Source of the DNA: an uncultured Candidatus Saccharibacteria bacterium
GTDB taxonomy: Bacteria > Patescibacteriota > Minisyncoccia > Minisyncoccales > PWPS01
Assembly: GCA_964544985.1 (NCBI GenBank)
Contig: CAZJEE010000006.1
Span: 1 to 42,634 of the forward strand
Direction of reading: 5' to 3'
DNA: 42,634 nucleotides
Position numbers and translations under genes: made by a program. The notes under the pieces are model-generated. The model saw only the letters and a program-made list of their open reading frames with translations, ran no database searches and was not told the DNA's origin. Of this stretch, positions 6,428 to 25,478 are shown piece by piece; position 1 is the first letter of the stretch; each line of letters opens with the position of its first letter.

Positions 6428-6470
6428 CTTTGACTTTCCATTTTTTCAAAAAAAAGCTATAATTATTAAC

Positions 6471-6860
6471 ATGAAAAAGAGAATAATATCTGTCACTTTA
6501 TTTTTTCTACTGATAGTAATCCCTCTTTTTACAAGTGCTCAAGGACTAGTCCCTTGTGGTCCTGGAACAGGAAAAGAGGTGTGTCAGTTATGTGATCTTT
6601 TTCAGCTTTTTGCCAATATTGTACAATTTTTGCTGGTAGTAATCGTTCCTCCGGTAGCTGCTCTTTTCTTTGTTTGGGGAGGAATACTTTTTTATACCGC
6701 AATGGGAGATTCTAGTAAGATTACAGCTGCAAGAAACGTATTAACAAGTGTAATTATCGGTATCGCAATAGTTTATGGTGCACACTTTTTGGTTTCAATG
6801 ATTCTTAATGCTCTAGGAGTAGTAGATGTTCAGTGGCCAAACATAAATATTTCTTGCTAG
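6471..6860 (+). CDS. Stand-alone VirB2/TrbC-like T4SS pilin (129 aa)
   Basis: Signal peptide, then GLVPCGPG...CQLCDL, then two TM helices joined by a short loop (VWGGILFYTAMGDSSKITAARNVLTSVIIG). The ORF track's GTG start at 6360 runs through the tRNA gene. The ATG at 6471 is the credible start. Confidence 0.7.
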   Translation: MKKRIISVTLFFLLIVIPLFTSAQGLVPCGPGTGKEVCQLCDLFQLFANIVQFLLVVIVPPVAALFFVWGGILFYTAMGDSSKITAARNVLTSVIIGIAIVYGAHFLVSMILNALGVVDVQWPNINISC

Positions 6861-6875: not shown

Positions 6876-6949
6876 GCCCCTGTAGCTCAGTCTGGCAGAG
6901 CAGCGGCCTCTTAAGCCGAGTGTCGTAGGTTCAAATCCTACCGGGGGCA
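6876..6949 (+). tRNA. tRNA-Lys (anticodon CUU)
   Basis: A 74-nt cloverleaf: acceptor gcccctg/cgggggc (one G-U pair), anticodon loop CUCUUAA, T arm gtagg-ttcaaat-cctac, discriminator A. No CCA is encoded. Confidence 0.9.
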
Positions 6950-6986
6950 CCCTTCGCTTTAAAAATTTAAATTAATAACAAATATC

Positions 6987-7244: not shown

Positions 7245-7799
7245 ATGATTAACAAACACAAAGGACAACGCGTTGCCGTTTTTCTTGATGTTCAAAACCT
7301 CTATCACTCTGCAAAAAATCTTTACAACGCTCGAGTAGATTTTAGTAAAGTAGTGGAAACCGCCGTAAGCAAGAGAAATCTCATCCGCGCTTTCGCCTAC
7401 GTAATCAAAACAAAAACAGGAGAAGAAAAATCATTCTTTGAAGCTCTCATCAATCTCGGCATCGAAATCAGAGTTAAAGATCTCCAAGAGTTTTATGGTG
7501 GATTTAAAAAAGGAGACTGGGATGTCGGTCTTGCGGTTGATGCAATTCGTATGTCTCCAGCAATGGATGCTATTGTACTTGTTACGGGAGATGGAGATTT
7601 TGTCCCTCTCGTTGAATACTTAAAAAATAGAGGAAAGCGTGTAGAGGTGCTTGCTTTCGAACGTTCTGCTTCGTTAAAATTAAAAGAAGCTGCCGATGAG
7701 TTTATAAACCTCGAAGAAAATAGTAAAAGGTTTTTGTTAACATCAACGCCTCAAAAAAGAACTACAAGAAATAAAAAAAAATACAATGAAAAAGTTTAG
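7245..7799 (+). CDS. NYN/LabA-like domain protein (putative RNase)
   Basis: RVAVFLDVQNLYHSA at the N-terminus, then DVGLAVDAI and VLVTGDGDFVPLVEYLKNRGKRVEV. These are hallmarks of NYN (LabA-like) PIN-related domains. Confidence 0.75.
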   Translation: MINKHKGQRVAVFLDVQNLYHSAKNLYNARVDFSKVVETAVSKRNLIRAFAYVIKTKTGEEKSFFEALINLGIEIRVKDLQEFYGGFKKGDWDVGLAVDAIRMSPAMDAIVLVTGDGDFVPLVEYLKNRGKRVEVLAFERSASLKLKEAADEFINLEENSKRFLLTSTPQKRTTRNKKKYNEKV

Positions 7800-9870
7800 T
7801 TTAAACATTGGAGGAAGAGAGCTTTCTATGTCTTCGGAGAATTTAGCAGAAAAAGCAAACGGACAAGTATTGGTCCGCTACAACGATACTGTTGTTTTTG
7901 CTACCGCAGTAATGACTGATGAGGACGTAGATAAAGGATTTTTTCCTCTTTCGGTAAACTATGAAGAAAAGTTTTATGCAGCAGGAAAAATAAGTGGTTC
8001 TAGATACACAAGAAGAGAAGGAAAACCGTCAGATAGAGCGACGCTTATCTCTCGAATGATTGACAGAGCAATTCGCCCTAAGTTTCCAAAAGAGATGAAA
8101 AGAGAAGTTCAAATTATCGTTACTTGTCTTTCTTGGGATGAAGAAAATGATCCTGGAGTACTGGGAATGATCGCCGCCTCTCTTGCACTTCATGTGTCTG
8201 ATATTCCTTGGAACGGGCCTCTGGGTGCGGTACGTATTGGTAGAAACAATGACCATATTTTAAATCCAAATTATCAAGAAAGAGGAGAAGGTAAAACAGA
8301 TATCATTATCAGTGGTTTTTTTGACGAAGAAAAAGAATTTATTGTAAATATGATCGAAGGTACCTTTAAAGAAGAAACCGAATCATCTATTATGGACGCC
8401 TTTCTCTTTTCTCAAGAACCAGTCAAAAAGCTTTGTGACTTTCAAGATGAAATTAGGAAAGAAATTGGTAAAGAAAAAATAGAACTTCCTCTTTCTTTTT
8501 CAAATAAAGAAATTAAAGGTGTTATTAAAGAAAAAACGGAAAACCAATTATCCAAAATATTCAAAAAAGACAACAAGGAAGAAGAGGTTAAAAAATTAAA
8601 AGAAGAAGTTAAGGCTTTTATCAAAGAAACTTACAAGGAAGAAGAAGAAATTAAATATGCATTTTCTTGTCTTGAAGAAGTTATCGAAAAAGAAATAAGA
8701 GACAATATTCTAAAAAAAGGAGAAAGAATAGACGGGAGAAAACTCGATGAACTAAGAAAAATAAAATGTTCTGTTGGCATTCTTCCTCGAACTCACGGAT
8801 CAGCACTATTTGAAAGAGGAGAAACAAAAGCTCTTTCTATTATTACTCTCGGTGCACCAGGGGAACAGCAACTAATGGATGAAATGGAGTTTTCAGGAAA
8901 AAAACGTTTCATGCATCATTATAATTTTCCTCCCTACTCCGTTGGAGAAGTAAAACCGGTACGGGGTCCCGGAAGAAGAGAAATTGGCCACGGAATGATC
9001 GGTGAAAACGGCATACTTCCTCTAATCCCTGAAACCGAAATCTTCCCCTATACAATTCGCAGTGTTTCTGAAATTGTTTCTTCGAACGGATCAACTTCAA
9101 TGGCTTCAGTTTGTGGAACAACGCTCGCCTTAATGGACGCCGGCGTACCAATTAAAAGACCAGTCGCAGGAATCTCTATCGGCCTTGTAAAAGAAGGTAA
9201 AGATTTCAAGCTTCTTACAGATATTCAAGGGTTAGAGGATCATTACGGTGACATGGATTTCAAAGTTGCCGGTACAGAAGAAGGGGTGACAGTTATTCAG
9301 ATGGACGTAAAAATAGAGGGAATTACACTAGAAATAACAGAAAAAGCACTAGAGGCGGCAAAAAAGACCCGTCTCTGTCTACTCGAAGAAATCAAAAAAA
9401 CAATTTCTGAGCCTCGTAAAAATTTATCTCCATACGCTCCAAAAATAGTTACTTTAAAAATCAATCCAGAGAAAATTGGGGAGGTTATCGGTCCTAAGGG
9501 AAAAATTATTAACGAAATAATTGAAAAAACAAAAGTAGCAATTGATATAGAAGACACCGGACTTATTTCGATTACCTCGGAAGATGAAAAAGCCATAGAA
9601 ACCGCCGTTACGTGGATTAAAAATATTACAAGAGAAATTAAAGAGGGTGAAATATTTGACGGCCGAGTTATCAAAATTCTGGGATTCGGTGCTGTTGTAG
9701 AAATTCTTCCTGGACAAGAAGGGCTGTTACACATCTCTGAGATTGCGGACAGAAGAATCGAAAAAGTAGAAGACGAACTTAGTATTGATCAAATTGTTCA
9801 CGTAAAAGTTATTAAAAGAGAGGCAAACGGAAAAACTAGTCTTTCGATAAAACAGGCAAAGAAAGACTAA
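7786..9870 (+). CDS. pnp: Polyribonucleotide nucleotidyltransferase (PNPase)
   Basis: 694 aa with two RNase PH-like cores (GSALFERGETKAL, DHYGDMDFKVAGT), a KH segment (IGEVIGPKGKIINEI) and a C-terminal S1 domain (GEIFDGRVIKILGFGAVVEILPGQEGLLHISE). Confidence 0.95.
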   Translation: MKKFSLNIGGRELSMSSENLAEKANGQVLVRYNDTVVFATAVMTDEDVDKGFFPLSVNYEEKFYAAGKISGSRYTRREGKPSDRATLISRMIDRAIRPKFPKEMKREVQIIVTCLSWDEENDPGVLGMIAASLALHVSDIPWNGPLGAVRIGRNNDHILNPNYQERGEGKTDIIISGFFDEEKEFIVNMIEGTFKEETESSIMDAFLFSQEPVKKLCDFQDEIRKEIGKEKIELPLSFSNKEIKGVIKEKTENQLSKIFKKDNKEEEVKKLKEEVKAFIKETYKEEEEIKYAFSCLEEVIEKEIRDNILKKGERIDGRKLDELRKIKCSVGILPRTHGSALFERGETKALSIITLGAPGEQQLMDEMEFSGKKRFMHHYNFPPYSVGEVKPVRGPGRREIGHGMIGENGILPLIPETEIFPYTIRSVSEIVSSNGSTSMASVCGTTLALMDAGVPIKRPVAGISIGLVKEGKDFKLLTDIQGLEDHYGDMDFKVAGTEEGVTVIQMDVKIEGITLEITEKALEAAKKTRLCLLEEIKKTISEPRKNLSPYAPKIVTLKINPEKIGEVIGPKGKIINEIIEKTKVAIDIEDTGLISITSEDEKAIETAVTWIKNITREIKEGEIFDGRVIKILGFGAVVEILPGQEGLLHISEIADRRIEKVEDELSIDQIVHVKVIKREANGKTSLSIKQAKKD

Positions 9871-9937: not shown

Positions 9938-9965
9938 TTGCTTTTGTAAAATTTTACTCTATAAT
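9938..9965 (+). promoter_or_regulatory. Candidate promoter TTGCTT-N16-TATAAT ahead of the giant coiled-coil block
   Basis: A perfect -10 TATAAT at 9960-9965 and a partial -35 at 9938-9943, inside the 142-nt gap after pnp. Confidence 0.3.
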
Positions 9966-10012
9966 GAAAGAACACTTTTATACAAAATATTTTTGCTAAA
10001 TAAATAATAAAT

Positions 10013-13000
10013 ATGTCCGAAAAAAGTCAAAAAGGAGGGATCCGGACAATGAAAGGAGATATCGCCCGTATTCAAAGAGGTGGCCAAGAAGAAAAAAACA
10101 AACCATCAATAGATCTCTTGCTTAAAAAGGCAAGGGCAAAATCTGCTCAAAGTTTTGATAATCAAAATCAACTCTCCAACGTTCATCAAAAAGACCAAAT
10201 CGCCTCTCAAATAAAGAGAGAAAAAGATGCTCTTGCAGAAAAAAAGATCATTGAGGAAATAAAGAAAAGAGCAAAAGAACAGGCAAAAGAAGAAAATAAA
10301 CAACCATTACAAGAAGATACTGTTGAAGAAGAAGTAAACCCTATAAAAGAAGATGTCACTGAAGAAAAAAAAGAGACTACAGAAAAAAGTTTTGAAGAGA
10401 TAGAAATAGAACGACAAAGAGAGATAATAAAAGAAAAGGAAGAACAAACAAAAAAAGAAAAAGAGAATATTGAGGAAGAAAAAAATAATGAAAGAGGAAG
10501 AATTGAAAAAGACATCGAGAGAATAAAAGAAAAAAAACAAGAGATAGAAGGAAAACTAATTTCCGCAGTAGAAAAAAAGAGAGAAAGTGAAACAACAGAA
10601 GAAGAAATTAATAAAAATCTTTCTGATCTCGAAAACAAATATCCGACTACCATAACCGAAGATATTACTCTTCAAGAAAGAGAAGTTCTTTGGGATCAAG
10701 AAAAAGAAATCAATCAACTAAAAGAAGAGCTTTATCATCTCTATTTTACTCGCTTCTCAATTGGTCTTGAAGAAAAGATTTTACAAGAAGAATTGTCTTT
10801 AATCAAAAAAGAAGAGGTCCTTCTTTCCCTATCTTTATTGTTGTTAGAGATTGAAAAGAAAATTAATCTTCTCGAAAAAGATTTTGATTTTTTTGAAAAA
10901 ACAGAAAAAATAGTCTCGACAATAAAAGAGAAGCTTGAAAAAATTGTTTCCAAAGCAGAAGATGAAAAAAGGGCATACTGGGAAGAAACTCTCAAAAAAG
11001 AGATAGATACTTCTAGTGAAAGAAAAAACTTGCAAGAAAAAACCAGAGAAGATATCTCTTCCTTAAAAGAAGAACTACGCACAAAATTAGAAGAAGTAGA
11101 AGAAAAGAAAAAAGAAATTATTTCTCTGGGAACTGATTTAGAAAAAATAAGAGAAGAAGGAAAGGAAGAAAAAAGAAAAAAAGAGGAAGCTTTAAAGAGA
11201 TCTACTGAAGAAGTAGAAGAAGAAATTGAAAGAATAAAAAGAGAAAGAGAGGAAGCTCGTCAAAAAGAGAAAAAAAGACTTTTGGCAGAGAACGAAAGAA
11301 AAGAAGAGGAGATAAGGAGAGAAGAACGAAAGAAAGAAGAAGAGGAGATAAAAAAAGAAGAAAATCTTTTGCGTGAAAAGTGGGAAGAAGAAATGAGAAC
11401 AAAAATAGAGGAATTCTCTGCCAAGTTTTATAACCAGCAAGAAGAGAAACAAAGAGACGTAGAGGAAAAAGAAGAACATAAAAGAAAAATTGAAGAAGCC
11501 CTGCAAAGCACGATCCAGTACAAAGAAAGTGTAGAAATAAAGAAAAATCAATCCAGAAAAAATATTATCTCCCTTGAAGAGAACAGAGAAGATGCAATAA
11601 AAAGAGGAGAAGATGTTGAAAAGAAAGAATTAGAAATTCAACAAGTACAAAGAGCAACTCAAAATCCAGAAAAACAAAAAGAGATTGAAGATAAGAGATG
11701 GGAGATAGAAGACGAGAGAAAAAAAATAGAGAAAGAGAGGTGGGCCTGGGAGGAAAAAATAGAACTAGCAAAAAGCGACGATCAGCGTCTCTCTAATGAA
11801 TACTTTTCTGTACAAGCAGAAGAAAAAATACAACGCGAAAGACTCGATGTGATAGAAAAAGAAGAAGGTGTACTTAATTTACGTCTTACTACTATTAACC
11901 TTCATTCTAAAATTCAAACAATACAAACCGAAAAAGATTTTTTAAGCAAAATCTTAGAACAACTCTTTAGTAAAGAAAGAAGAACAAAAGAAAAACTAGA
12001 AATTCTTTCGAAGGTTAAAAAGATTGTTGAGGTAAGAGAAAACGACATTGAAGAAAGAAAGCGATCATCAAAAGATACTTTTGAAAGAAAGTTTTTGGAA
12101 GAAGAGAGGTGGCACCTTGAAGAACGTAGAAAATGTATTGAAGAAGAATCAAGAGATTGGATAGCTTATCTGCAAGAAATAAAAGAACGAACGACTGATC
12201 AAAAAAGAGCCTTTGTTACTTTAGAAAATCAAATTACTGAACTAGAAAAAGAACTTCGTGAAGTAGAAGAAAAAATAACCGAGGAAGAAAAAAATATTAA
12301 TCGCAGAAGAAAAGACTTAGAGAGGGCAAGAAAAAAAGAAACAGAAAGAAAGAGAATGGTGGAAGAAGAAGAAAAAGCCAAAGAAGAAAAGAATAAGAAG
12401 CTTGAAGAAATAAGAAGAAAGGAAAAAGAAGAGCAGGCGAAAGAAGATGAAGAGAGAAGAAAGAGAGAAGAAAGAGAGAAGAAGAAGAAGAAAGAAGAAG
12501 AAGAAAGGAAAAGAGAAGAAGAAGAAAGGAAAAAAAGAATGGAAGAGAAGAAGAAGGAAAAGGAAAAACTTTTCCGAGAGTTTGTTTCCGAAGAAAAACC
12601 GGTTCTTCTCTCACAAAGAGAAACACTTGAAGAAAGAGAGCAACTTCTTGAAGAAAAACTGTCACTTGTTTTGAAAAAAGAAACTTCTTTAAAAGACAAT
12701 ATAAAAATAATTATTGCCAAAGAAAAAGTACAAAACTCTACTCAAAAGGAAGAAGAACTTAAAAACAAAAGATGGCAACTTGAAGATAAAAGAAGGCTCT
12801 GTGAAAAGAAAAAATGGAAACTTGAAGAAAAAATAAAAGCAACAAAAGAAAGAAGAGAACAAATTGTCCGGATTCTCAAAAAAGAAGATGGATTAAGAGA
12901 AGAGGTCAAGAGATTAGCAGAAGTCTTGGGGCAAAAATTAGAAATACCCCAGGGCAAAGAAGCCACCTTTTTTGAAGACGAGACAACCAGACTTCCCTTA

Positions 13001-14494
13001 ATACAAGAGAAGAAGATTTCGTTAATAGATAAAAAAACCCTTTTAGACGAAAAAAACAAAGAACTACAAAGAAGATTAAAAGAAATCACAGAGAAAGAGT
13101 ATCTAATAGAAGAAAAAGAAAAAGAATTAGAAAACAAGAAGCTTAATACAAATAAAAATGAGGAAGAAAAAATCCTTTCTCTTTATTGGAAAATCAAAGA
13201 AGATCGCAGAGGCATTGAAGAGCAACGCTGGGAAATCGAGAAAGCGATTATCGATATACGGAGAGAAATCAAAGAAATTCTGAAATCTTTAGAAGAACTA
13301 CACGGAGAAGAAGAAGAAATAAAAATCAACAAAATCAAAAATGACCTGATAAAAAACAGTTTGTTTTTGAGAGAAAAAATAGTCCTTTATAAAGAAGAAT
13401 TTAGGAAAATAAAGGAAGAAGAAAGATCTCTCCGTGAAATGAATAAAGATCTTCATGATAAAAAAGAAGAGCTTGACAACAACTTTAGAAGAGCTCTTAG
13501 TGAAGAAAAAACCCTGAAAGAAAAAGAAAAATTGGCTGAAGAAGAAGCCTCTACCGCCGAAACATCGACTCGTAGAATATCCGCAGAAAAAAGAAGATGG
13601 TGGGCCGAAGAAGAGAGGAGGGAAAAAGAAAAAACAATTCTTTTTATTAAAAAAGAAATTTCTCTTCTTTCGAAAAAAATAGAAGAATTAAAATTAAAAA
13701 TAAATGACAACGCAAGAAAAAAGAATGAACTTCTTTTTAAAAAAGGACGTTTACTAGAAGAAAAAACCCTCCACTTCATCAAAAAAGAAAAAATAAGATT
13801 AAGAGAAGAAATAAGAGAGGTAAAAGAAAGAAAAAGACTTATTGAAAAAAAAGAAGAAGACGCTCAGAAGAAAATCGTTCTTTTAGAGGATAAGAAACAA
13901 ATAATACTTTCAAAAGAAAGAAAAATAGATGAAGAAAAGAAGAGGCTAGAACTCGAAGCATCAAGAGAAAAAAGCTTTAAAAAGAGAATGGAAATAAAAA
14001 AACGTAGATGGGAGGTAGAAGAAGATAGAAGACTTATTGAGAGTCAAAAATGGACTATTGAAGAAAATATAGAACAGCTAAAAAAAGAAGAGCTGATACT
14101 CAAAAGCAAAGAAAATGCGCTTGTCTCAAGAAAAAGCAAACTTTATATAAATTATAAATTGAAAGGCCTCTCCCCTTTACGTAAAAGAATAGCTTCTTCC
14201 TTAAACAGGCTCTCTTTTGAAAGAGGAAAAACGAAAAAAGAGCTTTCTTCTATCCTTTTGAAAGAGGAAAAACTTATAGCAAAGATTGAAGAATACAAAA
14301 ATAAAAAATCGGAAGAAGGAAAGATAGCCGAAGAAAAAAGATGGCTCTTAGAAGAGAAAAGAAGAAAGATAGAAGAGAAAAAATGGAACATACAAGAAAA
14401 ATTAAAAAACTGTGAGTTGGAAATAAAAATCTCTGAGAAAAAAATAGAAAATATCGATAAACAAGAAAAAGAATGGAGAGAAAAATTAAAATAA
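10013..14494 (+). CDS. Giant Glu/Lys/Arg-rich coiled-coil protein with a repeated W-x13-W motif (1493 aa)
   Basis: Uninterrupted 4.5-kb ORF on an almost pure-purine coding strand, with no signal peptide or TM segment. It has six full copies of [KR]-R-W-x-[ILV]-E-[DE]-x-R-[RK]-x-[ILC]-E-x-x-[RK]-W plus a half copy. No known family recognised. Confidence 0.8.
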   Translation: MSEKSQKGGIRTMKGDIARIQRGGQEEKNKPSIDLLLKKARAKSAQSFDNQNQLSNVHQKDQIASQIKREKDALAEKKIIEEIKKRAKEQAKEENKQPLQEDTVEEEVNPIKEDVTEEKKETTEKSFEEIEIERQREIIKEKEEQTKKEKENIEEEKNNERGRIEKDIERIKEKKQEIEGKLISAVEKKRESETTEEEINKNLSDLENKYPTTITEDITLQEREVLWDQEKEINQLKEELYHLYFTRFSIGLEEKILQEELSLIKKEEVLLSLSLLLLEIEKKINLLEKDFDFFEKTEKIVSTIKEKLEKIVSKAEDEKRAYWEETLKKEIDTSSERKNLQEKTREDISSLKEELRTKLEEVEEKKKEIISLGTDLEKIREEGKEEKRKKEEALKRSTEEVEEEIERIKREREEARQKEKKRLLAENERKEEEIRREERKKEEEEIKKEENLLREKWEEEMRTKIEEFSAKFYNQQEEKQRDVEEKEEHKRKIEEALQSTIQYKESVEIKKNQSRKNIISLEENREDAIKRGEDVEKKELEIQQVQRATQNPEKQKEIEDKRWEIEDERKKIEKERWAWEEKIELAKSDDQRLSNEYFSVQAEEKIQRERLDVIEKEEGVLNLRLTTINLHSKIQTIQTEKDFLSKILEQLFSKERRTKEKLEILSKVKKIVEVRENDIEERKRSSKDTFERKFLEEERWHLEERRKCIEEESRDWIAYLQEIKERTTDQKRAFVTLENQITELEKELREVEEKITEEEKNINRRRKDLERARKKETERKRMVEEEEKAKEEKNKKLEEIRRKEKEEQAKEDEERRKREEREKKKKKEEEERKREEEERKKRMEEKKKEKEKLFREFVSEEKPVLLSQRETLEEREQLLEEKLSLVLKKETSLKDNIKIIIAKEKVQNSTQKEEELKNKRWQLEDKRRLCEKKKWKLEEKIKATKERREQIVRILKKEDGLREEVKRLAEVLGQKLEIPQGKEATFFEDETTRLPLIQEKKISLIDKKTLLDEKNKELQRRLKEITEKEYLIEEKEKELENKKLNTNKNEEEKILSLYWKIKEDRRGIEEQRWEIEKAIIDIRREIKEILKSLEELHGEEEEIKINKIKNDLIKNSLFLREKIVLYKEEFRKIKEEERSLREMNKDLHDKKEELDNNFRRALSEEKTLKEKEKLAEEEASTAETSTRRISAEKRRWWAEEERREKEKTILFIKKEISLLSKKIEELKLKINDNARKKNELLFKKGRLLEEKTLHFIKKEKIRLREEIREVKERKRLIEKKEEDAQKKIVLLEDKKQIILSKERKIDEEKKRLELEASREKSFKKRMEIKKRRWEVEEDRRLIESQKWTIEENIEQLKKEELILKSKENALVSRKSKLYINYKLKGLSPLRKRIASSLNRLSFERGKTKKELSSILLKEEKLIAKIEEYKNKKSEEGKIAEEKRWLLEEKRRKIEEKKWNIQEKLKNCELEIKISEKKIENIDKQEKEWREKLK

Positions 14495-14541
14495 ATCACA
14501 GATTATTTGCATTATTTGCTAAATAAAAATAAAATTGGAAT

Positions 14542-17523
14542 ATGAATGATTCCGAGATCAAAAATTCTATTCAAGAAATAGAAGAAAAAATAAAAAATCT
14601 CAACCATAGGAAAGAGGAAATAGAAAGAAAACTCGAGGAGGTTGATTTTTTCATTGCAAGAAGTAATGAAAAAGAATCTCAAGTAAAAGAAAGTATCGAT
14701 TCTCTCAGAGAACAAATGAAATCTCTTGATGAAGAAGAAAGAAAAATAACGGAAGAAACGAGAATTTTAGCAGGTGATGACGTAGAGAAAGAAAGAGAAC
14801 TTGGAAAAAGAAGATGGGTTGTTGAAGATAAAAGAAAAGACATAGAAAAAGAACTCTGGAAGTGGGAAAATGAAGCGAAGAAGATTGAAGAGACTTCCCT
14901 TCTCTCCGAAAAAAATAATGAAAGAATTTCTTTTTTTGAAGAAAGAAAAGAAGTTGAAAAAGAACTTTTATCATTAGGAGAACGAAAAGAAGAAGTTGAA
15001 AAAGACCTCATCTTGACAGAACTAAAAACTAAAAAAGAAGAGTTTTCTCTTGCTCTGAAGAAAGAAGAGTTTTTAGAAGAGAAAAAGAGAAAGTGGGAAG
15101 ACCGTCTTGAAAAAATAATTGAAAAAGAAAAATTAATAGAGGAAGAAGAAAAATTAATAGAGGAAGAAGAAGAATCCACAGAAGAAAGTGGTTTAGATAG
15201 TCGAAGAGATATAAAAAAAAGACGTTGGGATGCGGGAGATAGAAGAAAAGAAATAGAAGCGAAAAGATGGGAGACAGAAGAAGAGCTCTCAAAGATAGAA
15301 GGTGAAATCGAAAAAGAAAAAAGACTTCTAAGAAAACTTAAAAACGATATTGACGAAAGAAAAGAAATGATAGCAGATACGGAAGAAGATCTAAGTGAAG
15401 AAGATGAGATCGAAAAAGACATCCTAGAAGAACAAAAGACTTCAGAAAAAGCTCCTCTAGGAAATATGGAGGAAATCACTGCTGGAGAAAAAGAAGCTTT
15501 ATCCGCAGAAAAAGAAGAGTTTATCGCAAAAATATCACGCGTTAAAGATAAGCTGGATTTAGTTTTGAAAAAAGAAAGAGAAATTGAAGAAAGCATCATA
15601 AAAATAAATAGAGAGAAAAAGTTATCAAAAGACACAGAGAAAGAGAAAGATTTTGCTGAAAAGTCGTGGCAGATGGAAGAAGAAAGAAGAGTTGTAGAAC
15701 AAGAACGCTGGCCCCTTGAAAGAGAGATAAAAGAAATGGAAGAAAAAGTGTGCGACATAGAAAAAAGAGAAAAAAATATATTAAGAAGAGAAGAAAAATC
15801 TTTAGAAAAAGAAAAAGAAACGGAAAGAGGAAAAGAACTAAGAGAAAGAGAAGAAAAGATAAAAGAACTAAGTAAGAAAAGAAGAGAAGAGGAAAAAAGC
15901 ACCTCACAAGAGGAAATAAAGATAAAAGAAGAAGAGATTGGTGAAGAACAAAAAACAAGAGAACTGCATCTCGAAAAAATTAGTATTGTTAGGGAAAAGC
16001 TCGACGAAGAACTATTTGACATACTAAAGCAAAAAAAGATCCTTGAACTCGAAATAGACAAGTGCAAAAGAGAAGAAGATCGAATCGGAAAAGATTTACA
16101 CGTCGTCAAGCAAGAAGAAAGAGATTTAAGGGAAAAGAAAAAAAACATTGAAGCAAGAGAAAGTATCACATACAGCGTTGAAGAAAAGGAAGAAATTGAA
16201 AGAAAAAGATGGGAAATAGAAGAAGAAATAAAAGAGATAGAGAAAAAAATATGGACTGTAAAAGAGCGGCTTAACGGCCCTAAAAACAAAAAGAGAGAAA
16301 TAGAAATCAAATACCGTCATCTTGTAAACAGAGAAGAATCAATTAAAAATAAAAAAGAAAGTGTTGCGCGCAAGGAAGAAAAAATAAGAATTGATGAGGA
16401 GCGTGACAGAATAAAACTAAGAAAATTTTTCTTAAATGAAGAAAAGAAAGAATTAGGATTGAAAAGAGTCCGTATAAAAGAAAAAGAAAGACATATTCAG
16501 GAGAAACTAGATGTTATTTTATCAAGAGAAAATGAAGTAGAAGAATTAGAAAAAGAAATTGAAAAAAAGAAAGAAAACACAGAAGACTCAACCGAAAAGA
16601 GAGAAATAGGAAAGGAACACTGGAAAATAGAAGAAAAAAGAAGAGAAATTGAAAAAGAAAAGTGGGAAATACAAGAAAAGATGGATGAAGTGAAAAAACG
16701 AGCAGAAAATGTAGAACTTCACTTTCAACAACTTCTAAATGAAGAAGAGAGATTGGATTCTCGTGACGGTAAACTCGAAAAGAAAAGAAAGACCATAGGA
16801 TTAAGGCAGAGAAAGAAAGGAAAGGAGAAAGAGCTTGACCGCGTTCAAGAGATAAGAGGAGCTTTAGAAGGAAAACGAGAAGATCTCTTGTTAAAGAAAG
16901 GAAAGGAGAAAGAGCTTTTCGAAGAAATCTATAGTAAAGAAGAAGATGCTAAAACTAGTGAAAGAAAACTTGAAGAAGAAGAACAGTTTGTCGAAAGCCA
17001 AATTGAAAAAAGAGAGATAGAAAAAAAGAGATGGGAGGCAGAATCTGAAAGAAGAGTCCTCGAGAGAGAACGTTGGGAAATCGAAGAAAGGATGAAAGAA
17101 ATAGAAAAAGAATTAAAGGAAGTTGATTTGATAATAGAAAGAGAAGAAAATATTATTAAAGAACTGGACGAAATAAATTTTGCTCTAGAGCAAGAAGGAG
17201 AAGATGCTCCAAAAAAAGACTATGTAAAAAAATATCAAGAGAAACCACGTCCCCTCCCCAAAAAAGAAGAGGCTCCTCCACCACCAAAAGAAGAAACTCT
17301 CCCGTCAAAAGAAGAAGAAGTTTTATTTGACTTAGACTTTTCTATGCCAGATGAAGAAGTTTTAAAAGAAGAAACTCCCCCAGCTCCACTAGAAAAAAAA
17401 GAAGAGCTTTCTGATTTAGATTTTTCTCTCCCAAAAAAAGAAGAAAATAATTCAGAAGAAGCTCCTACTGAAAGTAGTCCTAAGAAAAAAGAAGAACTTT
17501 CTGATTTAGATTTCCGTTTTTAA
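14542..17523 (+). CDS. Second giant Glu/Lys-rich coiled-coil paralog (993 aa) with W-x13-W motifs and a C-terminal Pro-rich tail carrying 3x DLDF motifs
   Basis: Six copies of the same W-x13-W motif, for example KRRWVVEDKRKDIEKELW and KKRWEAESERRVLERERW. The C-terminus reads EEVLFDLDFSMP...EELSDLDFSLP...EELSDLDFRF-stop. Confidence 0.8.
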   Translation: MNDSEIKNSIQEIEEKIKNLNHRKEEIERKLEEVDFFIARSNEKESQVKESIDSLREQMKSLDEEERKITEETRILAGDDVEKERELGKRRWVVEDKRKDIEKELWKWENEAKKIEETSLLSEKNNERISFFEERKEVEKELLSLGERKEEVEKDLILTELKTKKEEFSLALKKEEFLEEKKRKWEDRLEKIIEKEKLIEEEEKLIEEEEESTEESGLDSRRDIKKRRWDAGDRRKEIEAKRWETEEELSKIEGEIEKEKRLLRKLKNDIDERKEMIADTEEDLSEEDEIEKDILEEQKTSEKAPLGNMEEITAGEKEALSAEKEEFIAKISRVKDKLDLVLKKEREIEESIIKINREKKLSKDTEKEKDFAEKSWQMEEERRVVEQERWPLEREIKEMEEKVCDIEKREKNILRREEKSLEKEKETERGKELREREEKIKELSKKRREEEKSTSQEEIKIKEEEIGEEQKTRELHLEKISIVREKLDEELFDILKQKKILELEIDKCKREEDRIGKDLHVVKQEERDLREKKKNIEARESITYSVEEKEEIERKRWEIEEEIKEIEKKIWTVKERLNGPKNKKREIEIKYRHLVNREESIKNKKESVARKEEKIRIDEERDRIKLRKFFLNEEKKELGLKRVRIKEKERHIQEKLDVILSRENEVEELEKEIEKKKENTEDSTEKREIGKEHWKIEEKRREIEKEKWEIQEKMDEVKKRAENVELHFQQLLNEEERLDSRDGKLEKKRKTIGLRQRKKGKEKELDRVQEIRGALEGKREDLLLKKGKEKELFEEIYSKEEDAKTSERKLEEEEQFVESQIEKREIEKKRWEAESERRVLERERWEIEERMKEIEKELKEVDLIIEREENIIKELDEINFALEQEGEDAPKKDYVKKYQEKPRPLPKKEEAPPPPKEETLPSKEEEVLFDLDFSMPDEEVLKEETPPAPLEKKEELSDLDFSLPKKEENNSEEAPTESSPKKKEELSDLDFRF
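15130..15171 (+). repeat. Perfect 21-nt tandem duplication (2 copies) inside the second coiled-coil gene
   Basis: aaattaatagaggaagaagaa at 15130-15150 is repeated exactly at 15151-15171. It encodes KLIEEEE twice. Confidence 0.95.
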
Positions 17524-17541: not shown

Positions 17542-18102
17542 ATGCAAGTTGTGGAATCAATTAAAAAAGCACGAGAAAAAGGAATCAGCGATCAACTGAT
17601 TTTAAATGAAATAAGGAAACAAAATCCTGGAAAAGAGCCCTTTTTAAAAAAGGCTGAAGAGAGAGGTGCTTCATCTACCGATATACTAAATGAAATCATT
17701 AAACAAAATTCTCCCCAAGAAAATAGCATTACTCCTACAAATATTCCCTTTGTCAAAAAAGAAATTCCTTTTGTTGTTCCAGAGAAAAAAGATACCCCTT
17801 CTTCTTCACCAAAAGAAACTCAATCTAAAGAAGGAAAAACAATTCTAACAAAAGAAGCCCAAAAAAGAGAAGAAGAAATGAGAAATCAATTTCTAAAGAG
17901 AATTGAAGCAAAGGAGCGGGGAGAAGGAATGGGTGATAATAGTTTCTTCTCTTCTTCCTCACAGAAAATAGAAAGCTCTGGAGAGGAAATGATTACAAAT
18001 GTCTCGCCGCCCACCTTATCAAAAATGCCGACCTCTTTAATAGTTGTTGTTGGAATACTTTTTTTGGGTGCCTTTATTCTTTTAGCATTAAACTTCTTAT
18101 AA
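17542..18102 (+). CDS. Tail-anchored membrane protein with a duplicated N-terminal helical motif
   Basis: 186 aa. The N-terminus carries two copies of KKA[RE]E[KR]G-x-S-x-x-IL-NEI-x-KQN. The only TM helix is at the extreme C-terminus (LIVVVGILFLGAFILLALNFL-stop). Confidence 0.65.
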   Translation: MQVVESIKKAREKGISDQLILNEIRKQNPGKEPFLKKAEERGASSTDILNEIIKQNSPQENSITPTNIPFVKKEIPFVVPEKKDTPSSSPKETQSKEGKTILTKEAQKREEEMRNQFLKRIEAKERGEGMGDNSFFSSSSQKIESSGEEMITNVSPPTLSKMPTSLIVVVGILFLGAFILLALNFL

Positions 18103-18105: not shown

Positions 18106-19110
18106 ATGAATTTTGCAGAATCAATCAAAAAAGCCAGAGAGCGAGGCATGCAGGACGAACAGATACTTGAGGCAATAAAAAAACAAAATCCCCACAAGGA
18201 AGATTTTTTTAATAGAGAAAAAAATAGAGGATTAACTTCTGCTAACATCTTAGATAATATTATTAATGAAGAAAAGATTCCCAAAAAAATACCCTTAGAA
18301 GAACCCACTATCCCCCCCGAGATAAAAGAACATATTCCGCCAAAACCTACAGAAGAAACAAAACTTTGGATGAGAATTTTTATTACTCTTGTCTTGATAT
18401 CTATCGCAGCAACTTCAATAACAATGTTCTATCGTGCATTTTTTGTCCCAAAACTAAAGCCAATAAATCCAGAAATAATTGTTCATGAAATACAAATACC
18501 AAGAGCAACTCCTCCTTCAATAAGGCTCTATCCCGAAAAAGATAGTATTGACAGGTTTGCAATTACGGCAAACGAGGAATACCTTCTTTATTTAAAAAAA
18601 ATTGTTCGCGATAATAAAGATGGAGAGTTGATACGCATAATTATTGATGATCAAAGAGATGGTGCAAAAAATATTCGCTCCTCTAATCTTGAAGATTTCT
18701 TTAACATTTTTCAAATTAAATTTCCTGAAAATATCTTTACAAAAATAGAAAAAGATTTTAATCTTTTTGTCTACACAAAAGAAATAACTGGAAGAATCGC
18801 ACTCTCTGTCAAATTTGACAAAAGTGTTCGTGATGATGTAGAGTGGACCCTAATGCGTCCTTGGGAAGAAACGATGGCTGAAGATTTCCGTTTTTTCTTT
18901 GCTGAATGGGACCAACAGATTTCTTCTGTTGGAGAGTTTTTAACTACAACCCACAAGGGAGATTTACCTGTTTCTTTTTCCATTCGTTATAAAGAAGGTA
19001 GTGGCGGTGCGGGGATATATTATGCCATCACAGAAGACCGACTTCTGTTTGCAACATCACTTGAGAGTATTAAAAATATTATTGAAAGATATTATTATCT
19101 AGGAAGATAA
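18106..19110 (+). CDS. Bitopic membrane protein with a paralogous N-terminal motif and a roughly 220-aa extracytoplasmic domain
   Basis: The N-terminus ESIKKARERGMQDEQILEAIKKQNP...NRGLTSANILDNIINEE parallels the preceding ORF. A central TM helix (LWMRIFITLVLISIAATSITMFY) is present. The start lies 3 nt after the previous stop. Confidence 0.65.
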   Translation: MNFAESIKKARERGMQDEQILEAIKKQNPHKEDFFNREKNRGLTSANILDNIINEEKIPKKIPLEEPTIPPEIKEHIPPKPTEETKLWMRIFITLVLISIAATSITMFYRAFFVPKLKPINPEIIVHEIQIPRATPPSIRLYPEKDSIDRFAITANEEYLLYLKKIVRDNKDGELIRIIIDDQRDGAKNIRSSNLEDFFNIFQIKFPENIFTKIEKDFNLFVYTKEITGRIALSVKFDKSVRDDVEWTLMRPWEETMAEDFRFFFAEWDQQISSVGEFLTTTHKGDLPVSFSIRYKEGSGGAGIYYAITEDRLLFATSLESIKNIIERYYYLGR

Positions 19111-19111
19111 A

Positions 19112-19465
19112 ATGGACAAAAAACAATTAGAAGGCTTAAAGAGAAAACTAGAAGAAAGCAGATCTTCACTTGAAGAATCCCTTCTTCGTTTTGCCAAAAA
19201 AGATGGGCTTGGTCAAGATAATTGGGATACGGTTTTTCCAAAAGTAGAAGGAAGTAGTATGGAAGAAAAAGCCGATGAGGTAGAAGAGTATTCTTCCCTT
19301 CTCCCGGTAGAGCATGCTTTGGAGTTGAAGTTAAGAAACGTTAATGATGCTCTAGAAAAGATAAAGAAAAATAATTATGGAAAATGTGAGGCTTGTGAGA
19401 AAGAGATACCTTTTAACAGATTATCTATAACTCCTGAAATTAAAAAATGTAAAAATTGCTCTTAA
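19112..19465 (+). CDS. TraR/DksA-family C4 zinc-finger protein
   Basis: 117 aa with a coiled-coil N-terminal part and a C-terminal CEACEKEIPFNRLSITPEIKKCKNC (CxxC-x17-CxxC). Confidence 0.8.
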   Translation: MDKKQLEGLKRKLEESRSSLEESLLRFAKKDGLGQDNWDTVFPKVEGSSMEEKADEVEEYSSLLPVEHALELKLRNVNDALEKIKKNNYGKCEACEKEIPFNRLSITPEIKKCKNCS

Positions 19466-19485: not shown

Positions 19486-19512
19486 AAAACCGGAGACTGT
19501 CTCCGGTTTTTT
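19486..19512. terminator. Bidirectional intrinsic terminator between convergent genes
   Basis: aaaaccggaga-ctg-tctccggtttt: a GC-containing 7-bp core extended by A/T pairs, with an A-run on one side and a T-run on the other. It sits between the stops at 19465 (+) and 19514 (-). Confidence 0.8.
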
Positions 19513-19513: not shown

Positions 19514-20260
19514 TTATGGTCTTGCTCCTGTAGGAAGATGAGCGAAAGGATTTCTAATTTTCAAAGAGAGAACATCAAAGTGAAGATGACACCCGGTTCT
19601 TCCGATGGTTCTTCCAGTGTTTCCAACAGCCCCAATTTGCTTCCCTTGTGAAACATAGTCTCCCGTAGAAACATGTATATTTTGCATGTGAGCATACAAT
19701 ATAACAACCGATCCGTGATCAATTTTTACAAAATTTCCTGCCGGCCAACTTCCCCATCCGGTTTGAGTAACTCTGCCCGCCGCCGCCGCAACTATTGGGG
19801 TTCCACAATGATTATAAATGTCTACCGCGTTATAAGAATGAACTCTTTGTGATATCCTCCCTCCTGGAACAGGATTGATAAAAGAAGACCACGCAATTCT
19901 TGTTGTTGGAGTTGTTCTTATTACTGGTGGTGGAGGAGGAGTTCCTCCGGGAATAATCAATCTATCACCAGCAATAATCTTTTTTTCTTCGATATTATTA
20001 AAACTAAGAATATCCTCCGTCTTGGCCTTATGAATTTTTGCAATTTCACTTAATGTATCTCCTTTTTCGACATAATACATAACTCCGGTTGTAGGAAGTA
20101 TCAAAAGCTCTTCACCCTCTTTAATGGTATTTCCTTTAACATCATTGGCCCATCTTATTGTATCTGAAGAAATCCCAAACTTATCAGCGATAATAGAGAT
20201 GTTCTCTCCATCCTCTACCTTATAAGATATAAAACTTTCTCTTGATTCACTTGTCTCCAT
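19514..20260 (-). CDS. LysM-LysM-M23 peptidoglycan metallopeptidase (the ATG-defined ORF; the true N-terminus probably lies upstream)
   Basis: Two LysM repeats (YKVEDGENISIIADKFGISSDTIRWAN and YYVEKGDTLSEIAKIHKAKTEDILSFNN), a Pro-rich linker, and an M23 core (GTPIVAAAAGRV...YAHMQN...GRTGCHLHFDV). The frame stays open 330 nt upstream (see findings). Confidence 0.85.
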   Translation of the reverse strand: METSESRESFISYKVEDGENISIIADKFGISSDTIRWANDVKGNTIKEGEELLILPTTGVMYYVEKGDTLSEIAKIHKAKTEDILSFNNIEEKKIIAGDRLIIPGGTPPPPPVIRTTPTTRIAWSSFINPVPGGRISQRVHSYNAVDIYNHCGTPIVAAAAGRVTQTGWGSWPAGNFVKIDHGSVVILYAHMQNIHVSTGDYVSQGKQIGAVGNTGRTIGRTGCHLHFDVLSLKIRNPFAHLPTGARP

Positions 20261-24995: not shown

Positions 24996-25012
24996 TAAAA
25001 AATATAGAAATC

Positions 25013-25432: not shown

Positions 25433-25478
25433 AAATGTCCTTGACAATAGGGCTATTAAAATAATAAACTGAAGGGAG

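What the first reader, a model, noticed from the sequence alone, without database searches (positions are those of the whole stretch)
10013..17523. Two tandem giant E/K/R-rich coiled-coil paralogs punctuated by a strictly spaced W-x13-W motif
Seen: 7.5 kb of almost pure-purine coding strand encodes proteins of 1493 and 993 aa with no TM segments and no signal peptide.

A bipartite motif is embedded in the charged low-complexity sequence: [KR]-R-W-x-[ILV]-E-[DE]-x-R-[RK]-x-[ILVC]-E-x-x-[RKL]-W-x-x-[EQ]-E.

Six full copies occur in the first protein:
- KRWEIEDERKKIEKERW
- ERWHLEERRKCIEEESRDW
- KRWQLEDKRRLCEKKKW
- LYWKIKEDRRGIEEQRW
- RRWEVEEDRRLIESQKW
- KRWLLEEKRRKIEEKKW

There is also a half copy, KRRWWAEEERRE.

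Six copies occur in the second protein:
- RRWVVEDKRKDIEKELW
- RRWDAGDRRKEIEAKRW
- KSWQMEEERRVVEQERW
- KRWEIEEEIKEIEKKIW
- EHWKIEEKRREIEKEKW
- KRWEAESERRVLERERW

The two Trp are 14 residues apart in 11 of the 12 copies and 16 apart in the other. That is two heptads, so both fall on the same helix face. Trp is otherwise nearly absent from these proteins. Copies recur roughly every 90-170 aa.

Both genes also share the string TTTGCTAAATAAA about 10-15 nt upstream of the ATG (9992-10004 and 14515-14527). This is weak evidence in AT-rich DNA.

Inference: conserved aromatic pairs in an otherwise degenerate coiled coil suggest periodic docking or membrane- or partner-binding sites on a long filament, ruler or scaffold. 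I do not recognise the repeat as a named family.
Basis: partly seen in the sequence, partly recalled or inferred. Interest (0 to 1): 0.75.

Follow-up and report, generated by a model that had tools for sequence, protein, structure and literature searches.

The report
Split, expanded Patescibacteria helical-hairpin envelope protein
The two giant charged proteins are real: they are the split-off and greatly lengthened inner part of an unnamed membrane protein, widespread in the tiny Patescibacteria, that ties a rigid helical rod inside the cell to cell-wall-binding domains outside.

Summary
The W-x13-W motif is the conserved tip of a ~137-aa helix-turn-helix repeat. Protein A has 7 units and protein B has 6. 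AlphaFold2 (pLDDT 96.7) gives one tight turn per unit and 134-residue helices.

The repeat defines an unnamed family: 439 clusters at 50% identity, and all 32 genome loci are Patescibacteria. No Pfam, NCBIfam or PDB relative was found.

The usual member is one gene: an N-terminal IRTMKKDIA peptide, exactly 2 units (tips 137 aa apart in 81 of 101 cases, 130 in 10), one TM helix, and an outside domain that binds or cuts peptidoglycan. It nearly always sits between pnp and a DksA-like gene.

In this window and in relatives labelled Nealsonbacteria, that gene is split into four ORFs (A, B and the two downstream TM proteins) and the repeat has grown from 2 to 13 units. In split loci the soluble piece ends in LSDLDF[KR]F and the TM piece starts with a doubled 'SIKKAREKG.SD..IL' motif. 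Fused genes have neither, which suggests a non-covalent re-link.

Motif Trp are 100% conserved (one at 80-83% in each protein) among orthologs at 38-65% identity.

Function is inferred only: a cytoplasmic rod scaffold tied to the cell wall.

The parts
10013..14494 (+). Protein A (1493 aa). N-terminal piece of the split family gene: IRTMKGDIA peptide, about 460 aa of E/K-rich helix with no detectable units, then 7 hairpin units.
   Evidence: Orthologs of 1412-1610 aa in L033, L035, L037-L039 and 752 aa in L040.
10037..10075 (+). N-terminal peptide GIRTMKGDIARIQ of A. This is the family's hallmark N-terminal motif [ILV][RK]T[MLY]xxD[IL]A.
   Evidence: Motif found in 90 of 151 family representatives, at a median position of 19. 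It occurs only once among the window's ORFs.
11423..14491 (+). Array of 7 units of about 137 aa in A (residues 471-1493). The RW-x13-W tips are at nt 11693-11743, 12104-12160 (x15), 12767-12817, 13181-13231, 13589-13624 (half copy, WW), 14003-14053 and 14336-14386.
   Evidence: Unit HMM gives 7 hits of 82-109 bits. Coordinates. Motif Trp are 100% conserved in 4 orthologs, except W700 at 80%.
12245..12502 (+). E/R/K-only insertion (A residues about 745-830) that lengthens one inter-tip distance from 137 to 221 aa. It resembles a single-alpha-helix (ER/K) spacer.
   Evidence: Sequence, spacing. The structural reading is inference only.
14542..17523 (+). Protein B (993 aa). Middle piece of the split gene: 6 hairpin units, an acidic/Pro-rich tail and a C-terminal docking-type peptide.
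   Evidence: Orthologs of 959-1120 aa.
14542..17196 (+). Array of 6 units in B (residues 1-885). Tips are at nt 14809-14859, 15220-15270, 15661-15711, 16204-16254, 16615-16665 and 17026-17076.
   Evidence: Unit HMM gives 6 hits of 83-102 bits. AF2 of residues 602-875: pLDDT 96.7, helices 2-78, 82-215 and 219-273. Motif Trp are 100% conserved in 5 orthologs, except W229 at 83%.
17197..17520 (+). Acidic/proline-rich tail of B with three [LF]xDLDF motifs (nt 17320-17349, 17404-17430, 17494-17520). The last, ELSDLDFRF, is the C-terminus.
   Evidence: The C-terminal [IL]SD[LF][DE]F[KR][FL] peptide is present in all split loci examined and in no fused gene.
17542..18102 (+). Protein C (186 aa). Two 'SIKKAREKG.SD..IL..I.KQN' motifs (nt 17551-17709), a linker and a C-terminal TM anchor (nt about 18019-18093).
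   Evidence: It clusters with the C-terminal part of the fused family proteins.
18106..19110 (+). Protein D (334 aa). Two of the same N-terminal motifs (18112-18270), a TM helix (18352-18444) and an alpha/beta outside domain (18445-19107). This is the TM and ecto-domain module of the ancestral gene.
   Evidence: blastp aligns residues 77-332 to the C-termini of fused members L015, L010, L005 and L014. 35 homologs found. AF2 pLDDT 85. No significant fold match.
19112..19465 (+). DksA/TraR-type C4 zinc-finger protein (117 aa). It starts 1 nt after D ends and is syntenic with the family in 29 of 33 loci.
19486..19510 (+). Strong terminator-like hairpin (11 bp stem followed by a T run) that closes the A-B-C-D-dksA-like unit.
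14506..14535 (+). Promoter-like element upstream of B (TTTGCA-N18-TAAAAT).
7786..9870 (+). pnp (PNPase), the conserved upstream neighbour of the family gene.

Best explanation
Overview: A and B are the cytoplasmic part of a four-ORF, split version of a Patescibacteria membrane protein family that has no name yet.

Building block. The unit is a ~137-aa helix-turn-helix repeat. Each 134-residue helix runs back along its neighbour as an antiparallel two-helix coiled coil.

The tip. Within about 30 residues on each side of every turn:
- The seam is made of Ile at heptad position d.
- Conserved Glu at position a before the turn face conserved Arg at position a after the turn.
- The two Trp, with an Arg between them, lie at position b. 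They form a W-R-W stripe off the seam, which I infer to be a solvent-exposed binding surface.

Normal, fused form. It has an N-terminal IRTMKKDIA peptide, two units (a rod of about 20 nm with one W-tip at each end, the tip-to-tip length fixed at 137 aa or one heptad less), a linker, one TM helix, and outside domains that bind or cut peptidoglycan.

This lineage. The gene has been cut into A, B, C and D, and the rod module has been multiplied to 7 + 6 units.

Proposed mechanism (inferred):
1. The C-terminal LSDLDFRF peptide of B docks on the doubled 'KAREKG' helical motif at the N-termini of the TM proteins C and D. This re-attaches the cytoplasmic array to the membrane and wall module.
2. The W-R-W tips mediate homotypic or partner contacts, so the rods form a sub-membrane scaffold of defined spacing.
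3. That scaffold positions or clusters the wall-binding or wall-cleaving ecto-domains, giving envelope organisation or division-type control.

Confidence by layer: about 0.9 for the identity, architecture and gene fission plus expansion; about 0.5 for the peptide-domain re-link; about 0.3 for the scaffold-to-wall function.
For: Shown:
- A 137-aa repeat unit conserved well beyond the 17-aa motif.
- AF2 of two units with a 45-sequence alignment: pLDDT 96.7, pTM 0.72, one 3-residue turn per unit lying 12 residues before the first Trp.
- Heptad register from the family alignment. After the turn: d = Ile 88/95/102/109, a = Arg 92/99/106, b = W93, R100, W107. Before the turn: a = Glu 62/(69)/76, d = Ile 65/72.
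- An exhaustive profile search found 439 clusters at E<=1e-3 and 237 at E<=1e-10.
- 137 of the 153 sequences scanned with the unit model (151 database proteins plus A and B) have exactly 2 units.
- Motif Trp are invariant or present in >=90% of 45 family members.
- Tip-to-tip spacing is 137 in 81 of 101 cases and 130 in 10.
- The N-terminal motif is present in 90 of 151 representatives, followed by a single TM.
- Ecto-domains include PG_binding_1, PG_binding_3, GH3, SH3_3 and Amidase_2.
- All 32 genome loci carry Patescibacteria-type titles.
- Synteny is T4SS-pilin-like, rpsO, NYN, pnp, family gene, dksA-like. pnp is upstream in 28 loci and dksA-like is downstream in 29 of 33. Gaps to the dksA-like gene are mostly -4 to +20 nt.
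- Window protein D aligns to the TM and ecto-domain region of fused members.
- The four-ORF layout is conserved in L033, L035, L037, L038 and L039. L040 has a three-ORF variant. Expanded arrays also occur in L024, L029, L030 and L031.
- Motif Trp are conserved at the same positions in orthologs at 38-65% identity, while non-motif Trp are not.
- The C-terminal [IL]SD[LF][DE]F[KR][FL] peptide and the N-terminal doubled KAREKG motif co-occur in every split locus of this clade. That includes the unexpanded 2-unit loci L004 and L018. Neither is seen in about 22 fused loci.
- Hydrophobic content is about 25%, as expected for a single a/d seam.
Against: - No experiment, expression data or interaction data exist.
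- How more than 2 units pack (zig-zag of arms or side-by-side bundle) is unresolved.
- No homology to any characterised scaffold, division or wall-regulating protein.
- The ecto-domain of D has no recognisable fold and no PG-binding Pfam domain of its own.
- The neighbourhood is a housekeeping block that is syntenic across the phylum, so adjacency is weak functional evidence.
- Another split lineage (L041) lacks the LSDLDF tail. The re-link is therefore not the only solution.
Confidence: 0.45

Rival explanations
1. Trans-envelope signalling by sequestration. The rod holds the co-translated DksA/TraR-type RNA-polymerase-binding factor at the membrane and releases it according to cell-wall or host-contact status sensed by the ecto-domain, in the manner of an anti-sigma factor.
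For: The DksA-like gene directly follows the family gene in 29 of 33 loci, often overlapping by 4 nt or separated by 1-20 nt. A terminator follows it. DksA-type factors are themselves coiled-coil hairpin proteins (established knowledge).
Against: There is one DksA-like gene for 2 tips in most genomes and for 13 tips here, so stoichiometry does not track it. The block is housekeeping synteny. There is no evidence of contact. The DksA-like protein scores below NCBIfam cut-offs for true DksA.
Confidence: 0.15
2. Membrane-tethered RNA-decay scaffold. The rod organises PNPase and the NYN nuclease at the membrane, as RNase E or RNase Y do for degradosomes, and the Arg/Trp tips bind RNA or the enzymes.
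For: The order rpsO, NYN, pnp, family gene is kept in most loci, and the median gap from pnp to the family gene is about 25 nt. The tips are rich in Arg and Trp.
Against: The outside domains are all wall-directed. The tips are also rich in conserved Glu, and B is net acidic. A perfect TATAAT box (9960-9965) upstream of A is conserved in orthologous loci, and a promoter-like element upstream of B is conserved too, so A and B may have promoters of their own.
Confidence: 0.1
3. Secreted or surface fibre, or a T4SS/pilus accessory protein, in line with the reader's T4SS link.
For: A T4SS-like locus (pilin-like proteins, PrgI, VirB4/TraG-type ATPase) lies 3-20 kb downstream, and a pilin-like gene lies upstream. 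The same arrangement is seen in L035 and L037-L040.
Against: There is no signal peptide. In fused members the repeats lie on the N-terminal side of a single TM helix whose C-terminal side carries PG-binding domains, so the repeats are cytoplasmic. A terminator, a convergent M23/LysM gene and ksgA separate the loci.
Confidence: 0.05
4. Artefact or meaningless low-complexity ORFs: a mis-assembly of purine-rich repeats, or non-functional charged filler.
For: Low-complexity composition of 70-72% purine, with many short DNA tandem repeats.
Against: An independent assembly has identical ORF lengths and 19 differences in 9453 nt. Orthologs at 38-65% identity keep the frame, the unit number and the Trp positions. 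The units are 13-30% identical to each other, so they are not collapsible repeats.
Confidence: 0.02

Closest known systems
MapZ/LocZ, RodZ, and FtsN/DamX-type bitopic division and elongation proteins
   Same: The fused family member has the same overall layout: a cytoplasmic N-terminal interaction region, one TM helix, and an outside peptidoglycan-binding module. These proteins couple a cytoplasmic machine to the wall.
   Different: There is no sequence or fold relation. The only MapZ hit is noise, E 0.056 in 1 of 45 members. None of these proteins has a 137-aa hairpin repeat or W-R-W tips. Here the gene is split and the cytoplasmic part is multiplied.
EzrA and spectrin-type repeat rods
   Same: A membrane-associated cytoplasmic rod built of tandem helical repeats with a conserved Trp in the repeat.
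   Different: Spectrin and EzrA repeats are three-helix bundles of about 106 aa with two turns per repeat. This unit has one turn per 137 aa and 134-residue helices. There is no Pfam hit. The topology is also opposite to that of EzrA, which has an N-terminal TM.
SMC/Rad50 coiled-coil arms with a conserved apex (hinge or zinc hook)
   Same: Long intramolecular antiparallel coiled coils whose conserved tip is the interaction site. This is a useful analogy for tip-mediated association.
   Different: There are no ATPase heads, no CxxC hook and no hinge domain. The arms are about 10 nm per hairpin rather than about 50 nm.
Coiled-coil-rich cytoskeletal proteins (crescentin, FilP/Scy, Ccrp; tektin-like filaments were the best Foldseek matches)
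   Same: Very long, charged helical proteins that form scaffolds. Tektin-type microtubule inner proteins were the top structural matches, though not significant (E >= 0.15).
   Different: Those proteins are parallel dimers or three-helix segments without a strict 137-aa hairpin period. No homology was detected.
ER/K single alpha-helix (SAH) spacers
   Same: Parts of A (for example residues 745-830 and about 380-470) are pure E/R/K stretches like SAH domains.
   Different: The repeat units themselves have about 25% hydrophobic residues in an a/d pattern and fold back as hairpins. They are not SAH.

Membership tests
Unnamed Patescibacteria 'RW-tip hairpin rod' family (defined here) | Repeat unit of about 137 aa that matches the unit profile | tested here: met
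   A has 7 hits (82-109 bits) and B has 6 hits (83-102 bits). However, the profile was built from these same 13 units, so these scores are circular. The independent support is the profile search of 1.84 billion proteins, which found 439 clusters.
Unnamed Patescibacteria 'RW-tip hairpin rod' family (defined here) | R-W-x13-W tip motif about 12 residues after the turn, with tips 137 aa (or 130 aa) apart | tested here: met
Unnamed Patescibacteria 'RW-tip hairpin rod' family (defined here) | N-terminal [ILV][RK]T[MLY]xxD[IL]A peptide | tested here: met
   A residues 10-18 read IRTMKGDIA. The motif is present in 90 of 151 family representatives.
Unnamed Patescibacteria 'RW-tip hairpin rod' family (defined here) | Single TM helix and a wall-associated ecto-domain C-terminal to the repeats | tested here: met
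   Present, but on separate ORFs (C and D). D aligns to the TM and ecto-domain of fused members.
Unnamed Patescibacteria 'RW-tip hairpin rod' family (defined here) | Genomic position between pnp and a DksA/TraR-type gene | tested here: met
Spectrin / EzrA repeat | Three-helix bundle of about 106 aa (two turns per repeat); Pfam PF00435 or PF06160 match | tested here: not met
   One turn per 137 aa. No Pfam match.
SMC / Rad50 | ABC-type ATPase head domains flanking the coiled coil; hinge or zinc hook at the apex | tested here: not met
   No SMC_N, hinge or hook hit in A or B. PDB SMC hits have E >= 0.04 and cover coiled coil only.
PspA / Vipp1 / ESCRT-III | Homology to the PspA_IM30 hairpin domain | tested here: not met
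   No Pfam hit. PspA 4whe scores E 0.77.
DivIVA / GpsB | DivIVA N-terminal domain | tested here: not met
   No Pfam or NCBIfam hit.
MapZ/RodZ/FtsN-like bitopic wall-linked division proteins (functional class, not a homology family) | N-in single-pass topology with an extracellular peptidoglycan-binding or -cleaving domain | tested here: met
   Met for fused family members, which carry PG_binding_1, SH3_3, Amidase_2 or GH3 after the TM. For the window's D protein the ecto-domain has no recognisable PG-binding module.
MapZ/RodZ/FtsN-like bitopic wall-linked division proteins (functional class, not a homology family) | Binding to FtsZ, FtsA or MreB, or mid-cell localisation | not testable with these tools
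   Needs interaction or localisation experiments.
DksA/TraR (neighbouring gene 19112-19465) | C4 zinc finger PF01258 above the gathering score | tested here: met
   27.9 bits against a cut-off of 24.9. Below the NCBIfam equivalog cut-offs for true DksA.

The most novel reading that the evidence does not exclude
The family is a Patescibacteria-specific cortical cytoskeleton. Rods of fixed 20-nm length, each with a W-R-W tip at both ends, would self-assemble under the membrane into a periodic lattice. Through the TM and ecto-domain, that lattice would pattern peptidoglycan-binding and hydrolase modules on the outside.

The lineage of this window would have turned the self-assembling 2-tip monomer into covalent 7- and 6-tip concatemers. 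It would have replaced the covalent membrane link by a newly evolved peptide-domain pair (LSDLDFRF with the doubled KAREKG motif). That would make it a natural example of gene fission rescued by a docking motif.
Probability: 0.15. Interest if true: 0.85.

Novelty: new variant of a known kind. Interest (0 to 1): 0.62.

Why it matters
- Patescibacteria (CPR) make up a large share of bacterial diversity, yet their cell biology is almost unknown and many classical shape and division factors appear to be missing.
- This family is widespread, syntenic, unnamed and unannotated. It has a confidently predicted and unusual architecture: a rod whose length is conserved to the residue, or to one heptad.
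- It is physically tied to peptidoglycan-binding or -cleaving domains. That makes it a concrete candidate for how these tiny cells couple cytoplasm and wall.
- The window lineage adds two evolutionary experiments that can be tested directly: a 2-to-13 expansion of the module, and a gene fission accompanied by a co-occurring peptide and receptor-motif pair.
- The repeat model (alignments A1 and A2) could be used at once to annotate hundreds of 'hypothetical' or 'SMC-like' proteins.

Tried and rejected
- Pfam and NCBIfam scans of A, B, C and D and of 45 family members gave nothing beyond noise-level coiled-coil hits.
- PDB sequence searches with the unit profile, the double-unit profile and full-length B gave only generic coiled coils, TPR-CHAT at E 1e-3 to 3e-3, and a CPR coiled coil (7o97) at E 0.011-0.63. 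I treat all of these as chance.
- Foldseek against the PDB, for both the rod model and the D protein model, found no match with E <= 0.001.
- The word-indexed homolog search performed poorly on this low-complexity family, returning 1 and 11 hits. The exhaustive profile search was needed.
- The window's own proteins are not on record by exact look-up.
The genome scan is therefore biased towards members that carry ERW[EQK]IEEK-type tips.
- I looked for extra degenerate units in A residues 1-470 and found none.
- I tried to class the 13 units as 'first' or 'second' canonical unit types and found no clear pattern.
- I looked for an extra hydrophobic stripe that would indicate a multi-helix sheet in the expanded arrays. 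Composition is the same as in 2-unit members.
- Four literature searches found no description of the family. A follow-up reading of one paper, PMC13580157, found no mention of the weak 7o97 hit.
- Cluster look-up gave no informative names.
- The antisense ORF 14679-16310 (543 aa) is rejected as a by-product of the purine-rich strand. Its product is rich in Ser, Phe and Leu.
Full report
**1. The observation**

ORFs 10013-14494 (A, 1493 aa) and 14542-17523 (B, 993 aa) are present as stated. E, K, R and D make up about half of the residues.

After residue shuffling one expects about 0.2 W-x13-W pairs per protein. Observed are 5 (plus one W-x15-W) in A and 6 in B, and none of 20000 shuffles reaches that.

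Small corrections apply. The coding strand is 70-72% purine. The copies are not loosely spaced: the first Trp of successive copies is mostly exactly 137 residues apart.

**2. The motif is the tip of a 137-aa helical hairpin repeat**

Anchoring the 13 copies on the first Trp shows conservation well beyond the 17-aa motif. A conserved L..I...E..IE.....IE.KE helix is followed by a short S/T/P/D-rich loop about 12 residues before the Trp.

AlphaFold2 on B residues 602-875 (two units, 45-sequence alignment) gives mean pLDDT 96.7 and pTM 0.72. The helices are 2-78, 82-215 and 219-273. That is one 3-residue turn per unit and a 134-residue helix between turns.

The family alignment sets the heptad register.
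- After the turn, position d is Ile (88, 95, 102, 109).
- After the turn, position a is a conserved Arg (92, 99, 106) and position e is Glu.
- W93, R100 and W107 all sit at position b.
- Before the turn, position d is Ile (65, 72) and position a is a conserved Glu (62, 76).

So the hairpin tip is an Ile zipper with Glu facing Arg across the seam, and a W-R-W stripe off the seam. That the stripe is solvent-exposed is my inference from the register. I had no model coordinates.

Hydrophobic content is about 25%, as expected for a single a/d seam. It is the same in the window's units and in the rest of the family.

**3. It is a large, unnamed family**

A profile of the 13 units was searched against 1.84 billion representative proteins. 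It found 439 clusters at E<=1e-3 and 237 at E<=1e-10.

Of the 153 sequences scanned locally with the unit profile (151 database proteins plus A and B), 137 have exactly two units. Only A and B have 6-7.

The typical member has this layout.
- An N-terminal peptide [ILV][RK]T[MLY]xxD[IL]A, found in 90 of 151 representatives.
- A low-complexity linker, then two units.
- A further linker, one TM helix and a C-terminal region.

The motif Trp are invariant, or present in at least 90%, of 45 members. The first Trp of unit 1 and of unit 2 are 137 residues apart in 81 of 101 cases and 130 apart (one heptad less) in 10. The length and phase of the central helix are therefore conserved. At about 1.5 Å per residue, 134 residues give roughly 20 nm between the two tips.

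The C-terminal regions carry PG_binding_1, PG_binding_3, GH3, SH3_3, Amidase_2 or a Cys-rich DUF7107. These are extracytoplasmic, wall-directed modules. With a single TM helix, the repeats must therefore be cytoplasmic.

Nothing in Pfam, NCBIfam or the PDB, by sequence or by fold, accounts for the repeat. Source names are absent or read 'hypothetical protein'. Four literature searches found no description.

**4. Taxonomy and genomic context**

A pattern scan of one genome per GTDB species returned 32 loci. All carry Patescibacteria-type titles: Nealsonbacteria, Paceibacterota/Parcubacteria, Staskawiczbacteria, and TPA bins labelled Saccharibacteria. I did not verify the Saccharibacteria labels. 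The scan is also biased towards tips that match the search peptides.

The neighbourhood is strikingly constant: T4SS-pilin-like gene, rpsO, NYN-domain gene, pnp, family gene, DksA/TraR-type zinc-finger gene, followed by CCA-adding enzyme, an M23/LysM peptidase or ksgA.

The DksA-like gene follows at -4 to about +20 nt in most loci. The median distance from pnp to the family gene is about 25 nt. In the window a strong terminator follows the DksA-like gene at 19486-19510.

**5. What is special here: fission and expansion**

The two small proteins downstream of B are C (17542-18102) and D (18106-19110). They cluster with the C-terminal part of the fused family proteins. D residues 77-332, the TM helix and ecto-domain, align to the C-termini of fused members L015, L010, L005 and L014.

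A keeps the family's N-terminal peptide (GGIRTMKGDIARI). So A, B, C and D follow the N-to-C order of one ancestral gene.

The four-ORF layout recurs in L033, L035, L037, L038 and L039: A of 1412-1610 aa, B of 993-1120 aa, a small protein of 181-229 aa, then a 330-358-aa TM protein. L040 has a three-ORF variant (A 752 aa, B 959 aa, then a 437-aa TM protein with no separate small protein). All six lie between pnp and the DksA-like gene. Expanded arrays also occur in the Nealsonbacteria loci L024 (7 units, cut by the contig end), L029 (1+4), L030 (3+6) and L031 (3).

L033 is an independent ENA assembly. It differs from the window at 19 of 9453 nt and has identical ORF lengths. This argues against mis-assembly.

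Among orthologs at 38-65% identity the motif Trp are conserved in every sequence, except W700 of A (80%) and W229 of B (83%), and the spacing pattern is kept. The non-motif Trp (A227, A323, B185) are not conserved.

The 13 units are only 13-30% identical to one another. The expansion is therefore old, and A and B are not recent block duplicates.

**6. A co-occurring peptide and receptor-motif pair at the fission point**

B ends in an acidic, Pro-rich tail with three [LF]xDLDF motifs. The last one, ELSDLDFRF, is the C-terminus. All B orthologs end in [IL]SDLDF[RKG]F.

C and D begin with a doubled 'SIKKAREKG.SD..IL..I.KQNP' motif. AF2 models it as two short helix-turn-helix pairs.

In every split locus of this clade the soluble piece ends with the peptide and the TM piece begins with the motif. 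This includes L004 and L018, which still have only two units. None of about 22 fused loci has either feature.

I infer that the peptide docks on the motif and re-links the halves non-covalently. Another lineage (L041, protein P0012) is split differently: it has no tail, and the TM protein carries its own IKTYRNDA peptide. Fission therefore happened more than once.

**7. How it most likely works**

Shown: the architecture, the conservation, the topology (by domain logic), the wall-directed ecto-domains, and the fission with expansion.

Inferred:
- The tips are binding surfaces.
- The rods form a sub-membrane scaffold of defined spacing. In this lineage the module is concatenated 13-fold and tethered through the peptide and motif pair.
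- The scaffold positions the wall-binding or wall-cleaving modules.

How more than two units pack could not be resolved. It could be a chain of hairpin arms of about 10 nm, pairs forming 20-nm rods joined at mid-helix breaks, or a side-by-side bundle. Insertions and Gly/Pro breaks occur at some mid-helix positions, for example B around 305-320 and the ER/K insertion at A 745-830.

Rival readings cannot be excluded.
- Sequestration of the co-translated DksA-like factor.
- A membrane RNA-decay scaffold with PNPase and the NYN protein.

A surface or T4SS role is unlikely on topology and operon grounds. An artefact is effectively excluded.

**8. Comparison with known systems**

In layout the fused protein resembles MapZ, RodZ, FtsN or DamX: a cytoplasmic interaction region, one TM helix and a wall-binding domain. 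As a rod it recalls EzrA or spectrin and the arms of SMC or Rad50. It fails the defining features of each (see the membership table) and shows no homology to any.

It is best described as a new family and a new repeat type within the general class of envelope-anchored coiled-coil scaffolds.

**9. The shared 13-mer**

TTTGCTAAATAAA occurs exactly twice in the window. Upstream of B it lies within a promoter-like element (TTTGCA-N18-TAAAAT, 14506-14535) that is conserved in four orthologous loci. Upstream of A the conserved feature is instead a perfect TATAAT at 9960-9965, and the 13-mer itself is not conserved.

**Verdict**

Function remains inferred.

Noticed in passing
window 6354-6428 and 6360-6860: tRNA-Arg(TCG) overlaps the mechanical GTG start of the T4SS-pilin-like ORF 6360-6860, so the real start of that gene must lie downstream. 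tRNA-Lys(CTT) is at 6876-6951.
   Followed up: partly
window 22154-38844: A T4SS-like locus. It holds several proteins with a T4SS_pilin-type N-terminus (22154, 30336, 34459, 35584), PrgI (27424), a VirB4/TraG P-loop ATPase (28489), and M23 and C39-like peptidase domains fused to pilin-like N-termini. The same block follows the family locus in L035 and L037-L040.
   Followed up: partly
window 30336-34451, especially about 32000-33000: The 1371-aa pilin-N-terminus/M23 protein contains a Gly-rich hydrophobic stretch followed by an unusual Cys/Glu-rich region (runs such as CCCCEEEEEE). This coincides with a local peak in GC skew.
   Followed up: no
window 14679-16310 (- strand): A 543-aa antisense ORF inside B. 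Its product is rich in Ser, Phe and Leu, and it is a by-product of the purine-rich sense strand, not a gene.
   Followed up: yes
window 7245-7799 and loci L001-L040: A NYN-domain (predicted nuclease) gene is inserted between rpsO and pnp in most Patescibacteria loci examined (24 of 33).
   Followed up: no
L037 1661 (start of the A ortholog): The called start is probably too far downstream. The upstream in-frame sequence reads MSDDNNQKGGVRTM..., which restores the family's N-terminal motif.
   Followed up: partly
L041 2486-5022: A different split form of the family. A 2-unit soluble protein (P0012) without a tail is followed by a TM protein that carries its own IKTYRNDA peptide and the conserved ecto-domain. 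The [IL][RK]T[MY]xxD peptide can therefore sit on either piece.
   Followed up: partly
window 10688-10912 (A residues about 226-300): A comparatively hydrophobic segment (…LLSLSLLLLEIEKKINLLEKDFDFFEK…) lies in the otherwise charged N-terminal region of A. It is not a predicted TM helix, and its role is unknown.
   Followed up: no
PDB 7o97 (hit): A solved coiled-coil fragment of a hypothetical protein from Candidatus Giovannonibacteria matches the N-terminal part of the unit profile weakly (E 0.011-0.63). It could be a distant relative or just coiled-coil noise.
   Followed up: partly
window 19514-20260 (- strand): A convergent LysM and M23 peptidase gene follows the DksA-like gene here and in 17 other loci. 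It is another wall-directed gene in the conserved block.
   Followed up: no
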